A DNA stretch of 64,000 nt from a virus. A program made the translations under genes and the position numbers. Below the pieces are notes generated by a model. It ran no database searches, had not been told where the DNA came from, and saw nothing but the letters and a program-made list of their open reading frames with translations. Positions within the stretch are counted from its first letter, which is position 1. The number at the start of each line of letters is the position of its first letter. The stretch lies in UHGV virus genome UHGV-0098755; one strand, 5' to 3'. This document shows positions 48,288-49,115 of the stretch, piece after piece.

Positions 48288-48363
48288 TGGTCGAGGCAGT
48301 AGGGATCGAACCTACGACCCAGGACTTAGAAGGTCCTTGCTCTTCCTTCTGAGCTATGCCTCG
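48288..48363 (-). tRNA. tRNA-Arg (anticodon UCU), CCA encoded
   Basis: Hand-folded cloverleaf: acceptor CGAGGCA/UGCCUCG, anticodon loop CUUCUAA, T-arm GGUUCGAUCC. Confidence 0.85.
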
Positions 48364-48367
48364 TATT

Positions 48368-48442
48368 TGGCGGACGTGATAGGATTCGAACCTATAACCA
48401 ATCGCTTAACAGGCGATCGCTCTGCCATTGAGCTACACATCC
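48368..48442 (-). tRNA. tRNA-Asn (anticodon GUU), CCA encoded
   Basis: Acceptor GGAUGUG/CACGUCC, anticodon stem AUCGC/GCGAU, loop CUGUUAA, T-arm GGUUCGAAUCC. Confidence 0.8.
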
Positions 48443-48446
48443 AAAT

Positions 48447-48534
48447 TGGTGGGGAGTGATGGAGTCGAACCACCCGAGTCGCAATGACAATGGATTTACA
48501 GTCCACACCGCTACCTCTACGGGATAACTCCCCA
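48447..48534 (-). tRNA. tRNA-Tyr (anticodon GUA), type II with long variable arm, CCA encoded
   Basis: Acceptor GGGGAGU/ACUCCCC, anticodon loop CUGUAAA, long extra arm, T-arm GGUUCGACUCC. Confidence 0.8.
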
Positions 48535-48543
48535 AATTAATTT

Positions 48544-48617
48544 GGTGGCCCTGGGTGGAATTGAACCACCATCTGGCGATTATGAGTCGCTTGCTTGAAC
48601 CTTCCAGCTACAGGGCC
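48544..48617 (-). tRNA. tRNA with anticodon CAU (Ile-lysidine type or Met), CCA encoded
   Basis: Acceptor GGCCCUG/CAGGGCC, anticodon loop CUCAUAA; T4 tRNA-Ile is known to carry CAU. Confidence 0.75.
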
Positions 48618-48618
48618 T

Positions 48619-48694
48619 TGGTGCTGATTGACGGAATCGAACCGCCGACCTTCTCATTACAAGTGAGTTGCTCTACCTACTGAGCTAAATCAGC
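48619..48694 (-). tRNA. tRNA-Thr (anticodon UGU), CCA encoded
   Basis: Acceptor GCUGAUU/AAUCAGC, anticodon loop CUUGUAA, T-arm GGUUCGAUUCC. Confidence 0.8.
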
Positions 48695-48699
48695 AAAAC

Positions 48700-48789
48700 T
48701 GGCGGAGGCGATAGGATTTGAACCTATGAGTCGCCGGAGCGACTGCCGGTTTTCAAGACCGGTGCATTAAACCACTCTGCCACGCCTCC
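48700..48789 (-). tRNA. tRNA-Ser (anticodon UGA), type II, CCA encoded
   Basis: Acceptor GGAGGCG/CGCCUCC, anticodon stem CCGGU/ACCGG, loop CUUGAAA, long variable arm. Confidence 0.85.
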
Positions 48790-48791
48790 AG

Positions 48792-48865
48792 TCTCCATAC
48801 AAGGATTTGAACCTTGGACCTCCTGATCCCAAATCAGGCGCTCTACCAAACTGAGCTACACGGAG
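48792..48865 (-). tRNA. tRNA-Pro (anticodon UGG), CCA not encoded; 2 nt from tRNA-Ser (dimeric precursor arrangement)
   Basis: Acceptor CUCCGUG/UAUGGAG, anticodon stem CCUGA/UCAGG, loop UUUGGGA. Confidence 0.8.
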
Positions 48866-48875
48866 TAAATTAAAT

Positions 48876-48949
48876 TGGAGCGGATAATGAGAATCGAACT
48901 CACATCATCAGATTGGAAGTCTGAGGTAATGCCATTATACGATATCCGC
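48876..48949 (-). tRNA. tRNA-Gly (anticodon UCC), CCA encoded
   Basis: Acceptor GCGGAUA/UAUCCGC, anticodon stem UCAGA/UCUGA, loop CUUCCAA. Confidence 0.85.
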
Positions 48950-48954
48950 AAATT

Positions 48955-49041
48955 TGGTGCGAGAAGTGGGACTCGAACCCACAAGGAAATCATTCCGCAG
49001 CATTTTAAGTGCTGTGCCTTTACCAATTTGACCATTCTCGC
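48955..49041 (-). tRNA. tRNA-Leu (anticodon UAA), type II, CCA encoded
   Basis: Acceptor GCGAGAA/UUCUCGC, anticodon stem CAGCA/UGCUG, loop CUUAAAA, long variable arm. Confidence 0.85.
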
Positions 49042-49042
49042 G

Positions 49043-49115
49043 CTGGGAATAAAGGACTCGAACCTTTGCATCTAGCAGTCAAAGTGCTATGCCTTACCAA
49101 CTTGGCTAATTCCCA
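49043..49115 (-). tRNA. tRNA-Gln (anticodon UUG), CCA not encoded; 1 nt from tRNA-Leu
   Basis: Acceptor UGGGAAU/AUUCCCA (U1-A72), anticodon stem UAGCA/UGCUA, loop CUUUGAC. Confidence 0.85.

What the first reader, a model, noticed from the sequence alone, without database searches (positions are those of the whole stretch)
48288..49115. Ten-gene tRNA cluster including Tyr(GUA) and Asn(GUU) not in the canonical T4 set
Hand-folding gives ten minus-strand tRNAs in transcript order Gln(UUG), Leu(UAA), Gly(UCC), Pro(UGG), Ser(UGA), Thr(UGU), CAU-anticodon (Ile/Met), Tyr(GUA), Asn(GUU), Arg(UCU). Gln-Leu and Pro-Ser are separated by 1-2 nt and lack encoded CCA (dimeric-precursor arrangement as in T4). 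T4 is recalled to encode eight tRNAs; Tyr and Asn are extra here, occupying the interval between the CAU tRNA and Arg. Extra phage tRNAs may compensate codon usage or replace host tRNAs cleaved by anticodon nucleases.
Basis: partly seen in the sequence, partly recalled or inferred. Interest (0 to 1): 0.5.

Follow-up and report, generated by a model that had tools for sequence, protein, structure and literature searches.

The report
T2-type tRNA operon of T4-like phage
The ten tRNA genes are real, but they are the common, already published "T2-type" version of the T-even phage tRNA operon; T4 lacks the tyrosine and asparagine tRNAs because a selfish nuclease gene (segB) occupies that position.

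Summary
Confirmed and ordinary. The window is a Tequatrovirus. Gln to Thr is about 97% identical to T4. The distal block (window 47920-48597: most of the CAU tRNA, Tyr, Asn, Arg and a 116-aa ORF) has no T4 counterpart, and its four tRNAs match phage T2 (Tyr differs by 1 nt, the other three are identical). T4 carries a different Ile tRNA, segB and a different Arg tRNA there. This segB-less arrangement was published for T2L/RB1/RB3 in 2008. At least 80% of the Tyr-Asn segment is present in 436 phage records, against 126 for T4-type segB. The exact 27-bp preferred SegB cleavage site lies inside the Asn gene. The CAU tRNA looks like Ile2 (AUA reader), not Met. Only Gln and Pro lack an encoded CCA. 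On function, Tyr and Asn are among the amino acids most enriched in the phage relative to E. coli. A 97.7%-identical T6 tRNA-Tyr is shown experimentally to counter Septu (PtuAB). The Asn tRNA carries substitutions next to the PARIS AriB cleavage site; any effect on cleavage is inferred, not tested. Novelty: already known.

The parts
49185..49209 (-). T4 middle-promoter-like site (MotA box TGCTTTA, 12-nt spacer, -10 TATTAT), about 70 nt upstream of tRNA-Gln
   Evidence: Pattern match: 11 sites in the window against 1.18 expected from shuffles. The site is conserved in T4 and T2. Promoter function is inferred, not shown.
49042..49115 (-). tRNA-Gln(UUG). No encoded CCA: the discriminator G is at 49043, one C follows, then Leu +1.
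   Evidence: 74/74 identical to T4.
48955..49041 (-). tRNA-Leu(UAA), CCA encoded
   Evidence: 87/87 identical to T4, T2 and T6.
48876..48949 (-). tRNA-Gly(UCC), CCA encoded
   Evidence: 73/74 identical to T4.
48791..48865 (-). tRNA-Pro(UGG). No encoded CCA: the discriminator A is at 48792, then CU, then Ser +1.
   Evidence: 75/75 identical to T4.
48700..48789 (-). tRNA-Ser(UGA). CCA is encoded here and in T2, unlike T4.
48619..48694 (-). tRNA-Thr(UGU), CCA encoded. The sequence after A38 is U39 G40 A41, against U39 C40 A41 in E. coli thrU.
   Evidence: 73/76 identical to T4. Anticodon stem-loop comparison.
48543..48617 (-). CAU-anticodon tRNA, most likely tRNA-Ile2 (lysidine-modified AUA reader). 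It is the T2 allele, not the T4 allele.
   Evidence: 75/75 identical to T2. 77% identical to E. coli ileX, with the same 15-nt anticodon stem-loop core (GCGACTCATAATCGC). 65% to T4 Ile, 60% to metT, 52% to initiator Met.
48447..48533 (-). tRNA-Tyr(GUA), type II with a long variable arm, belonging to a lineage shared among phages
   Evidence: 86/87 identical to T2 and 85/87 to T6. 96.6% to a Vequintavirus, 85% to a Felixounavirus, 79-80% to T5-like phages, but about 64-67% to E. coli tyrT.
48368..48442 (-). tRNA-Asn(GUU), with discriminator G73. The sequence after A38 is G39 C40 G41, against U39 C40 C41 in E. coli asnT.
   Evidence: 75/75 identical to T2. Anticodon stem-loop comparison.
48366..48392 (-). 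Exact copy of the 27-bp preferred SegB homing-endonuclease site (T-arm and 3' end of the Asn gene plus 2 nt of spacer)
   Evidence: Unique exact match. It carries the five discriminating bases G6, A16, G18, A26 and A27 that PMC2330249 gives for the T2L tRNA-Asn site.
48288..48363 (-). tRNA-Arg(UCU), the T2 allele
   Evidence: 76/76 identical to T2. 51% identical to T4 Arg and about 70% to E. coli argU.
47919..48269 (-). 116-aa ORF of unknown function between tRNA-Arg and rnaD. It is part of the block absent from T4.
   Evidence: phrog_3355, unknown function. No Pfam or PADLOC match. Present in T2, Sf22 and Sfk20.
47803..47922 (-). Homologue of T4 rnaD (stable 'species 2' RNA). Coordinates are approximate.
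   Evidence: Alignment with the annotated T4 region, about 95% identity.
47658..47796 (-). Homologue of T4 rnaC (stable 'species 1' RNA). Coordinates are approximate.
47584..47607 (-). Intrinsic-terminator-like hairpin (10 bp, 7 G-C) followed by a T run. Likely the end of the tRNA/stable-RNA transcription unit.
   Evidence: Conserved in T4.
47920..48597 (-). Block with no counterpart in T4. T4 has the 3' part of its Ile tRNA, segB and its own Arg tRNA here.
   Evidence: BLASTN breakpoints. T4 annotation.

Best explanation
This is the tRNA operon of a T4-like coliphage (Tequatrovirus) in its segB-less, T2-type form. What it is (shown): six proximal tRNAs (Gln, Leu, Gly, Pro, Ser, Thr) shared with T4 are followed by a distal block of four tRNAs (CAU, Tyr, Asn, Arg) and a 116-aa ORF. 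The four tRNAs match T2 (Tyr differs by 1 nt). After the block come the T4-type stable RNAs rnaD and rnaC and a terminator. How it is expressed (inferred from the T4 paradigm): the unit is transcribed from a MotA-type middle promoter about 70 nt upstream of Gln, plus read-through from upstream. It is then cut into monomers through Gln-Leu, Pro-Ser and Thr-CAU dimeric intermediates by host RNase P and 3' trimming. The host CCA-adding enzyme completes Gln and Pro. What it does: the tRNAs top up the host pool for a very AT-rich phage genome. Eight of them read codons that are rare in the host and common in the phage (AGA 6.1x, AUA 4.5x, UCA, ACA, GGA, UUA). Tyr and Asn serve two of the three amino acids most over-represented in the phage. 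tRNA-Tyr also acts as a supplement or decoy against PtuAB nucleases (Septu, retron-Eco7) that cut host tRNA-Tyr in the variable loop. [quoted passage not shown] Both phage tRNAs differ from the host at positions flanking that cut, but their resistance to cleavage is untested. The Asn gene also contains the preferred SegB site. In a mixed infection with a segB+ phage such as T4, this distal block is therefore expected to be cleaved and converted to the T4 allele, which explains why T4 has only eight tRNAs.
For: Ten tRNAs. Tequatrovirus identity. Proximal tRNAs 96-100% identical to T4; CAU, Asn and Arg 100% and Tyr 98.9% identical to T2. Homology breakpoints with T4 at 48598 and 47919. T4 annotation with segB between Ile and Arg. 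T2 annotation Met-Tyr-Asn-Arg plus the same 351-bp ORF. In T6, homology stops exactly at the Tyr-Asn spacer, where segB begins. Exact 27-bp SegB site: with PMC2330249. That paper also shows that T2L, RB1 and RB3 lack segB, that the preferred cut is in tRNA-Asn, and that about 1250 bp encoding Met/Tyr/Asn/Arg is excluded in T4 x T2L crosses. Prevalence: at least 80% of the Tyr-Asn segment in 436 records, T4-type segB in 126. Promoter-like site and terminator. rnaD/rnaC. Usage: Tyr 1.83x, Lys 1.82x, Asn 1.56x, AUA 4.5x, AGA 6.1x, AUG 0.92x. Tyr as counter-defence: PMC13096335 reports that Septu cuts tRNA-Tyr at C48/A49; T2 is resistant; T4, which has no tRNA-Tyr, is sensitive; T6 tRNA-Tyr overexpression or amplification rescues; and deleting the tRNA region sensitises. 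PMC11555353 and PMC12673091 report that T5-type tRNA-Tyr neutralises retron-Eco7 and that its variable loop is required. The variable-arm core GTCATTGCGACTCG is identical in the window, T2, T6, a Vequintavirus, T5 and a T5-like phage, and is 2 nt longer than the host's. Asn and Thr: AriB target set and 40|41 cut site from PMC12409363; window Asn has G39/G41 against host U39/C41, T5 Asn also has G39, and a Felixounavirus Asn has the same stem-loop.
Against: No experiment exists on this phage. Septu EcB88 also cleaves T6 tRNA-Tyr at C48, so the tRNA works by dosage and is not resistant. T2's resistance to Septu was not attributed to its tRNA-Tyr in that paper. The phage has no tRNA-Lys, the main PARIS target and the second most enriched amino acid, so Asn and Thr alone would not defeat PARIS. 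PMC12409363 found that T4 and T7 could be rescued without a phage Asn tRNA. The tRNA region is dispensable in the laboratory (stated in PMC2330249), and T4 grows well without Tyr and Asn. The E. coli codon-usage comparison rests on one 50-kb sample with ORFs called mechanically. The sigma-70 scan was no better than shuffles (11 against 9.5), so the promoter assignment rests only on the MotA-box pattern and its conservation.
Confidence: 0.8

Rival explanations
1. Translation supply only. The extra Tyr and Asn tRNAs exist solely to match the phage's AT-rich codon and amino-acid demand and have no role in counter-defence.
For: Tyr is the most enriched amino acid (1.83x) and Asn the third (1.56x) in 67 window ORFs against an E. 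coli sample. UAU is 2.6x and AAU 3.3x. The anticodon loops of the phage Tyr and Asn tRNAs are identical to the host's, as expected for plain supplements.
Against: Lys is equally enriched (1.82x), yet no tRNA-Lys is encoded. His is depleted (0.68x), yet close relatives insert a tRNA-His in the same block. T6 tRNA-Tyr has a demonstrated Septu phenotype (PMC13096335). The variable arm of tRNA-Tyr is conserved across four unrelated phage groups while other stems co-vary, and Asn differs from the host at positions 39 and 41. Demand alone does not predict either pattern.
Confidence: 0.25
2. Neutral ancestral leftovers. Tyr and Asn are simply the ancestral state of the locus, kept by linkage and lost in T4 when segB homed in, with no current selective value.
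For: The region is non-essential (PMC2330249). T4 lacks both tRNAs. The locus is a mosaic: T2 has an ORF in place of Thr, T6 lacks Pro-Ser and Asn, and some relatives add His.
Against: The Tyr-Asn segment is at least 95% identical in 376 records and covers at least 80% of the query in 436. The cloverleaves are intact, with compensatory changes. The identity elements are retained: A73 with GUA for Tyr and G73 with GUU for Asn. The T6 homologue is expressed and functional (PMC13096335).
Confidence: 0.1
3. The CAU tRNA is an elongator tRNA-Met, as ARAGORN, tRNAscan-based annotations and the 2008 paper label it, rather than tRNA-Ile2.
For: The DNA anticodon is CAT, so prediction tools say Met. PMC2330249 calls the T2L gene tRNA-Met.
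Against: It is 77% identical to E. coli ileX against 60% to metT and 52% to initiator Met. Its anticodon stem-loop core GCGACTCATAATCGC is identical to that of ileX. It has C4-G69 and C5-G68 like ileX (recalled from the literature as TilS determinants), where metT has U4-A69 and A5-U68. AUA is 4.5x enriched in the phage while AUG is 0.92x. It occupies the position of T4's tRNA-Ile, and some records (RB14, TadeuszReichstein) annotate it as Ile.
Confidence: 0.15

Closest known systems
Phage T2 / T2L tRNA gene region (EMBL AJ880101; Brok-Volchanskaya et al. 2008, PMC2330249; T2 genome AP018813)
   Same: The same segB-less distal block. The CAU, Asn and Arg tRNAs are 100% identical and Tyr is 86/87 identical. 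The same 351-bp downstream ORF and the same preferred SegB site in Asn are present.
   Different: T2 has a 133-aa ORF where this window has tRNA-Thr, so T2 has nine tRNAs and this window has ten.
Phage T4 tRNA operon (eight tRNAs, segB, rnaC, rnaD; NC_000866)
   Same: The same synteny (trna.4-trna.2 upstream, e.8 downstream). Gln to Thr is 96-100% identical. The Gln-Leu and Pro-Ser junctions, the promoter-like region, rnaD/rnaC and the terminator are the same.
   Different: T4 has segB in place of Tyr and Asn. It has a different Ile(CAU) allele (65% identity) and a different Arg(UCU) allele (51%). It has no 116-aa ORF and no encoded CCA on Ser. It also lacks the 149-aa ORF upstream of the promoter.
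Ten- and eleven-tRNA clusters annotated in Shigella phages Sfk20, Sf22 and Shfl2, Escherichia phage RB14 and several hundred other Tequatrovirus records
   Same: Sfk20 has the same ten genes in the same order at 97.2% identity. The Tyr-Asn segment is 100% identical in Shfl2 and 98.9% in RB14.
   Different: Sf22, Aplg8 and many others carry an eleventh gene, tRNA-His(GUG), inserted between Asn and Arg. At least 80% of that insert is present in 333 records.
Phage T6 tRNA-Tyr / segB locus (Chihara et al. 2026, PMC13096335)
   Same: tRNA-Tyr is 85/87 identical with an identical variable arm. It is the experimentally validated anti-Septu tRNA.
   Different: T6 keeps Tyr but has segB starting exactly where Asn starts here. 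It has the T4-type Ile allele and lacks Pro-Ser.
T5-type counter-defence tRNAs: tRNA-Tyr against retron-Eco7 and tRNA-Lys/Thr/Asn against PARIS (PMC11555353, PMC12673091, PMC12409363)
   Same: tRNA-Tyr is 79-80% identical with the same variable-arm sequence. tRNA-Asn shares the U39-to-G change next to the AriB cut site.
   Different: The operon and the phage family are different. The Asn tRNAs are only 63% identical overall. This phage has no tRNA-Lys.

Membership tests
tRNA (Rfam RF00005) | Covariance-model score at or above the curated gathering threshold (29 bits) | tested here: met
   All ten pass. Nine score 59-74 bits and Tyr 30.2 bits.
tRNA (Rfam RF00005) | Cloverleaf with a 7-bp acceptor stem, a 7-nt anticodon loop with U33, and a T-arm | tested here: met
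   ARAGORN folds. The Tyr D-stem is irregular (one C-C mismatch and one G-U). Even so, 12 of 24 pairs show compensatory changes across 8 homologues.
tRNA (Rfam RF00005) | Expressed, processed and aminoacylated | not testable with these tools
   There is only indirect evidence: the T6 tRNA-Tyr (2 nt different) is detected by northern blot and is functional (PMC13096335).
T-even (T4-type) tRNA operon | Position between the trna.2-4 ORFs and rnaD/rnaC/e.8, on the same strand | tested here: met
   BLASTN to annotated T4 gives 94.8-98.1% identity in the flanks.
T-even (T4-type) tRNA operon | Gln-Leu, Pro-Ser and Thr-Ile adjacent pairs (dimeric precursors) | tested here: met
   The Gln-Leu, Pro-Ser and Thr-CAU junctions are identical to T4, with Thr's CCA followed by 1 nt before the CAU tRNA. 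Processing itself was not tested.
T-even (T4-type) tRNA operon | T4 allele of the distal part (T4 Ile, segB, T4 Arg) | tested here: not met
   There is no segB. The CAU tRNA is 65% and the Arg tRNA 51% identical to the T4 genes. It is therefore a member of the operon family but not the T4 allele.
T2-type segB-less allele (SegB homing target) | Met/Ile(CAU)-Tyr-Asn-Arg block followed by the trna ORF | tested here: met
   Identity to T2 AP018813 is 75/75, 86/87, 75/75 and 76/76. The same 351-bp ORF follows.
T2-type segB-less allele (SegB homing target) | The 27-bp preferred SegB recognition site with G6, A16, G18, A26 and A27 in the Asn gene | tested here: met
   One exact match at 48366-48392, with no other site within 3 mismatches. 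The defining bases are taken from the text of PMC2330249. Cleavage itself was not tested.
Phage counter-defence tRNA-Tyr (anti-PtuAB) | Near-identity to a tRNA-Tyr shown to rescue phage from Septu or retron-Eco7, including its variable arm | tested here: met
   97.7% identical to T6 tRNA-Tyr. The variable-arm core GTCATTGCGACTCG is identical to T6 and T5.
Phage counter-defence tRNA-Tyr (anti-PtuAB) | Rescue of plating on a PtuAB-containing host | not testable with these tools
   This needs plaque assays.
AriB (PARIS)-evading phage tRNAs | Substitutions at or next to the 40|41 cleavage site or in the U36-A-A-U39 motif, relative to the host tRNA | tested here: met
   Asn has G39 C40 G41 against host U39 C40 C41. 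Thr has U39 G40 A41 against host U39 C40 A41. The criteria come from PMC12409363.
AriB (PARIS)-evading phage tRNAs | Resistance to AriB cleavage, and a full Lys/Thr/Asn set sufficient to bypass PARIS | tested here: not met
   There is no tRNA-Lys anywhere in the window, so the full set is absent. Resistance to cleavage is not testable here.
tRNA-Ile2 (lysidine, AUA-reading) | CAU anticodon with an Ile2-type body rather than a Met-type body | tested here: met
   77% identical to ileX against 60% to metT. The anticodon stem-loop core is identical to ileX. C4-G69 and C5-G68 are present. Their role as TilS determinants is recalled from the literature and was not tested.
tRNA-Ile2 (lysidine, AUA-reading) | Lysidine at position 34 and charging by IleRS | not testable with these tools
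   This needs mass spectrometry or aminoacylation assays.

The most novel reading that the evidence does not exclude
The distal Tyr-Asn(-His) block may be a mobile counter-defence cassette, not just a codon supplement. Under this reading, tRNA-Tyr counters PtuAB (Septu, retron-Eco7). The tRNA-Asn with G39/G41, and in relatives tRNA-His, counter PARIS-type AriB or other nucleases that cut the anticodon stem. The selfish endonuclease SegB, whose preferred site lies inside the Asn gene, would then erase this protection when it homes in. That would make T4's eight-tRNA set and its Septu sensitivity a cost of carrying segB. The Tyr part is published. The Asn part and the cost-of-homing idea are untested syntheses of published work and the sequence comparisons made here.
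Probability: 0.3. Interest if true: 0.4.

Novelty: already known. Interest (0 to 1): 0.15.

Why it matters
As a discovery it matters little. The arrangement was sequenced and mapped in T2L, RB1 and RB3 in 2008 and is annotated in hundreds of T4-like genomes. The value is in the context. T4, the textbook reference, is the atypical member of its genus at this locus, because the homing endonuclease gene segB replaced Tyr and Asn. Comparing against T4 alone therefore makes the common state look unusual. The locus also sits where two active research lines meet: phage tRNAs as countermeasures to tRNA-cleaving immunity (Septu, retron-Eco7, PARIS), and homing endonucleases that reshape tRNA arrays. 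The sequence-level prediction that this tRNA-Asn, with G39/G41, resists AriB is cheap to test.

Tried and rejected
(1) The CAU and Arg tRNAs are not orthologues of T4's Ile and Arg. Identity is only 65% and 51%, so the whole distal block is heterologous.

(2) The phage Tyr and Asn tRNAs do not evade nucleases through anticodon-loop mutations (the model of PMC10264068). Their 7-nt anticodon loops are identical to the host's. The differences lie in the anticodon stem (positions 39-41) and, for Tyr, in the variable arm.

(3) Tyr, Asn and His are three of the four GUN (queuosine) tRNAs, which I recall from memory to be the target set of colicin E5. I could not test this link. Because the loops match the host's, only a dosage effect would be possible, so I left it as a thought.

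(4) The sigma-70 promoter scan gave 11 sites against 9.5 expected and is uninformative. I relied on the MotA-box pattern instead.

(5) The function of the 116-aa ORF remains unknown. It belongs to PHROG 3355, which has no known function. It has no Pfam or PADLOC match. A single-sequence AlphaFold2 model is weak (pLDDT 72.5, with the other four models below 40). Foldseek against the PDB returned nothing with E at or below 0.001.

(6) The SegB motif GTTCSAWTY from the 2026 paper occurs in only three of the ten tRNAs (Gly, Thr, Asn) and eight times in the window. It is therefore a weak marker, and I used the 27-bp site of the 2008 paper.

(7) I did not run the large protein-database searches, because the finding concerns RNA genes and the answer did not depend on them.
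Full report
OBSERVATION. ARAGORN finds ten tRNA genes in the whole 64-kb window, all on the minus strand between 48288 and 49115. In transcript order they are Gln(UUG), Leu(UAA), Gly(UCC), Pro(UGG), Ser(UGA), Thr(UGU), a CAU tRNA, Tyr(GUA), Asn(GUU) and Arg(UCU). Rfam's tRNA model finds the same ten above its gathering score. Nine score 59-74 bits, and Tyr is marginal at 30.2 bits against a threshold of 29.

The weak Tyr score comes from an irregular D-stem and a long variable arm. 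The gene is nevertheless real. An alignment of eight tRNA-Tyr sequences (this window, T2, T6, a Vequintavirus, a Felixounavirus, a T5-like phage, T5 and E. coli) gives a cloverleaf of 24 pairs, and 12 of those pairs are kept through changes on both sides.

Reading the sequence confirms the tight junctions. One nucleotide lies between the Gln discriminator and Leu, two between the Pro discriminator and Ser, and one after Thr's CCA before the CAU tRNA. One correction is needed: only Gln and Pro lack an encoded CCA. Leu, Gly, Ser, Thr, CAU, Tyr, Asn and Arg all have CCA in the DNA. T4's Ser lacks it (G-TAA), whereas this window and T2 have GCCA.

WHAT THE WINDOW IS. A 1.3-kb query around the cluster matches 892 phage records, nearly all T4-like phages of Escherichia, Shigella and relatives. 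The best matches are about 97% identical (Shigella phages Sf22 and Sfk20, Enterobacteria phage Aplg8). A 20-kb query gives about 96% identity to Tequatrovirus genomes. Sfk20 is annotated with the same ten tRNAs in the same order. Sf22 has an eleventh, tRNA-His(GUG), inserted between Asn and Arg.

COMPARISON WITH T4, T2 AND T6. In the annotated T4 record the order is Gln, Leu, Gly, Pro, Ser, Thr, Ile, then segB (a GIY-YIG homing endonuclease), then Arg, rnaD and rnaC. Gene-by-gene alignment shows that Gln, Leu, Gly, Pro, Ser and Thr are 96-100% identical to T4.

The CAU, Tyr, Asn and Arg genes have no good T4 match. Against phage T2 (AP018813) they are 75/75, 86/87, 75/75 and 76/76 identical. 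BLASTN places the homology breakpoints with T4 at window 48598, about 20 nt into the CAU tRNA, and at 47919, the start of the rnaD homologue.

The heterologous block is therefore window 47920-48597. It contains most of the CAU tRNA, then Tyr, Asn, Arg and a 116-aa ORF. In T4 the corresponding block contains the rest of tRNA-Ile, segB and a different tRNA-Arg. The window's CAU and Arg tRNAs are only 65% and 51% identical to the T4 genes. So the difference from T4 is a swapped block that includes two further tRNA alleles, not just two extra tRNAs.

T2 has the same distal block and ORF but carries an ORF where the window has Thr. T6 keeps Tyr, and its homology with the window stops exactly at the Tyr-Asn spacer, where a segB-containing segment begins. 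Downstream, the window has 95%-identical homologues of T4 rnaD and rnaC and a strong terminator-like hairpin at 47584-47607. Upstream, a MotA-box/-10 combination (TGCTTTA, 12 nt, TATTAT) lies about 70 nt before Gln and is conserved in T4 and T2. That pattern occurs 11 times in the window against 1.18 expected from shuffles.

ALREADY PUBLISHED. Brok-Volchanskaya et al. (2008, PMC2330249) sequenced the tRNA regions of T2L, RB1 and RB3. They showed that these phages lack segB and carry tRNA-Met(CAU), Tyr, Asn and Arg genes plus ORFs absent from T4. They also showed that SegB's preferred cleavage site lies in the tRNA-Asn gene. In T4 x T2L co-infections segB is inherited at nearly 100%, and about 1250 bp of T2L DNA encoding Met, Tyr, Asn and Arg is excluded.

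From the five discriminating bases given in that paper (G6, A16, G18, A26, A27) I reconstructed the 27-bp site GGTTCGAATCCTATCACGTCCGCCAAA. It occurs exactly once in the window, at 48366-48392 inside the Asn gene, and no other site lies within three mismatches.

The arrangement is also common. At least 80% of the 182-nt Tyr-Asn segment is present in 436 phage records. It is 100% identical in Shigella phage Shfl2 and 98.9% identical in RB14. T4-type segB is covered at 80% or more in only 126 records. The His-containing insert is covered at 80% or more in 333 records. T4 is therefore the minority state at this locus.

IDENTITY OF THE CAU tRNA. Prediction tools and the 2008 paper call it Met. It is 77% identical to E. 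coli ileX (tRNA-Ile2, the lysidine-modified AUA reader), against 60% to elongator metT and 52% to initiator Met. Its anticodon stem-loop core GCGACTCATAATCGC is identical to that of ileX. It has C4-G69 and C5-G68 like ileX, where metT has U4-A69 and A5-U68. I recall these pairs from the literature as TilS determinants, so that point is a lead, not a test.

AUA is 4.5-fold more frequent in the window's ORFs than in the E. coli sample, while AUG is 0.92-fold. The gene also occupies the place of T4's tRNA-Ile. I conclude that it is most likely an Ile2-type tRNA and a second, divergent allele of the T4 function. Some database records already annotate it as Ile.

FUNCTION: SUPPLY. I compared 67 mechanically called window ORFs (15,905 codons) with 41 ORFs from a 50-kb E. 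coli K-12 segment (14,727 codons). The codons read by the eight tRNA types that T4 also encodes are enriched in the phage:
- AGA 6.1x
- AUA 4.5x
- UCA 3.3x
- ACA 3.0x
- GGA 2.9x
- UUA 2.6x
- CAA 1.5x
- CCA 1.5x

Tyr is the most enriched amino acid (1.83x), Lys the second (1.82x) and Asn the third (1.56x). UAU is 2.6x and AAU 3.3x. This supports the codon and amino-acid compensation reading. It leaves two facts unexplained. No tRNA-Lys is encoded. Relatives add a tRNA-His although His is depleted (0.68x).

FUNCTION: COUNTER-DEFENCE, tRNA-Tyr. Chihara et al. (2026, PMC13096335) show that Septu EcB88 (PtuAB) cleaves E. coli tRNA-Tyr in the variable loop (C48/A49) during T6 infection. They report several results that bear on this locus:
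- T2 is resistant, T4 (segB but no tRNA-Tyr) is sensitive, and T6 is intermediate.
- Overexpressing T6 tRNA-Tyr rescues T6.
- Deleting the T6 tRNA-rich region sensitises it.
- Escape mutants amplify a tRNA-Tyr-segB unit.
- T6 tRNA-Tyr is itself cleaved at C48, so it works by dosage.

The window's tRNA-Tyr differs from T6's by 2 nt and from T2's by 1 nt, and none of the differences is in the variable arm. Azam et al. (2024, PMC11555353) and the retron-Eco7 structural study (PMC12673091) show that T5-type tRNA-Tyr neutralises retron-Eco7 PtuAB and that its variable loop is required.

The window's tRNA-Tyr belongs to a lineage shared among phages. It is 96.6% identical to a Vequintavirus gene, 85% to a Felixounavirus gene and 79-80% to T5-like genes, but only about 64-67% to E. 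coli tyrT. The variable-arm core GTCATTGCGACTCG is identical in the window, T2, T6, the Vequintavirus, T5 and the T5-like phage, and is 2 nt longer than the host's.

FUNCTION: COUNTER-DEFENCE, tRNA-Asn AND tRNA-Thr. [quoted passage not shown] The cut falls between positions 40 and 41, next to a U36-A-A-U39 motif. T5 variants of all three tRNAs carry substitutions around the cut and together abolish PARIS toxicity.

After A38 the host Asn reads U39 C40 C41, the window's Asn reads G39 C40 G41, and T5's reads G39 U40 U41. A Felixounavirus Asn has the same stem-loop as the window although it is only 67% identical overall. The host Thr(UGU) reads U39 C40 A41, and the T4 and window Thr read U39 G40 A41.

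I infer that these phage tRNAs are poorer AriB substrates; this is not shown. Without a tRNA-Lys the phage would still be expected to be PARIS-sensitive, as T4 is.

VERDICT. The feature is the well-known T2-type, segB-less allele of the T-even tRNA operon. It was published in 2008, is annotated in hundreds of genomes, and its tRNA-Tyr function has recently been demonstrated in a sister phage. This analysis adds four things:
- The exact block boundaries relative to T4.
- The exact SegB site in the Asn gene.
- The Ile2 assignment of the CAU tRNA.
- The position 39-41 differences in Asn and Thr that line up with the AriB cut site.

Interest is low. The most novel reading still open is that the Tyr-Asn(-His) block is a counter-defence cassette that SegB homing erases. 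I give that about 0.3 probability.

DEAD ENDS. The 116-aa ORF carried in the block belongs to a PHROG of unknown function. It has no Pfam or PADLOC match, only a weak single-sequence structure model, and no fold match in the PDB. The sigma-70 scan was no better than chance.

Noticed in passing
window 47919-48269 (-): A 116-aa ORF sits inside the tRNA/stable-RNA transcription unit, between tRNA-Arg and the rnaD homologue. It travels with the Tyr-Asn-Arg block in T2, Sf22 and Sfk20 and is absent from T4. It belongs to PHROG 3355 (unknown function), has no Pfam or PADLOC match, and its model has no structural match.
   Followed up: partly
window 49222-49743 (-), ORF 49276-49725: A 149-aa ORF (PHROG 2290, unknown function) lies between the trna.2 homologue and the tRNA promoter region. 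T4 has only about 11 bp at this position. T2 and Sf22 carry the ORF, annotated as 171 aa in Sf22.
   Followed up: partly
window ~47658-47922 (-): Homologues of the T4 stable RNAs rnaD and rnaC (about 95% identity) have no Rfam family. The rnaC part contains a tRNA T-arm-like GGTTCGAATCC flanked by complementary CCGGG/CCCGG.
   Followed up: no
L001 (Sf22) 2537-2730; between window 48363 and 48368: Many relatives insert about 190 bp carrying tRNA-His(GUG) between Asn and Arg; at least 80% of that insert is present in 333 records, including Klebsiella and Enterobacter phages. His is depleted in this phage's ORFs (0.68x against E. coli), so codon demand does not explain the insertion.
   Followed up: partly
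L013 (Vequintavirus JeffSchatz), L015 (Felixounavirus REP11), L014 and L018 (T5-like phage, T5): tRNA-Tyr is far more similar between unrelated coliphage families (79-97%) than to the host gene (about 64-67%), and the variable arm is nearly invariant. This suggests horizontal spread of, or common selection on, a phage-type tRNA-Tyr.
   Followed up: partly
L005 (T2) 3711-4112; L004/L016 (T6): The locus is a mosaic among the classical T-even phages. T2 has a 133-aa ORF (mis-annotated as 'tail sheath monomer') in place of Thr. T6 lacks Pro-Ser and Asn, and its segB is mis-annotated as 'serine recombinase'.
   Followed up: partly
window 46832-47110 (-), ORF 46866-47042: There is a second small block that differs from T4. 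A 58-aa ORF replaces T4 e.7 between the e.6 and e.8 homologues, as in T2.
   Followed up: no
whole window: The MotA-box/-10 pattern TGCTTTA-N11-13-TANNNT occurs 11 times against 1.18 expected from shuffles, and 10 of the 11 are on the minus strand. One copy lies inside the 116-aa ORF (48156-48181) and could drive rnaD/rnaC on its own.
   Followed up: no
searches hit lists: Records labelled Campylobacter phage (16-18 records) and Pseudomonas phage PsgM02F carry near-identical coliphage tRNA regions. These may be mislabelled hosts or contaminating coliphages in the deposits.
   Followed up: no
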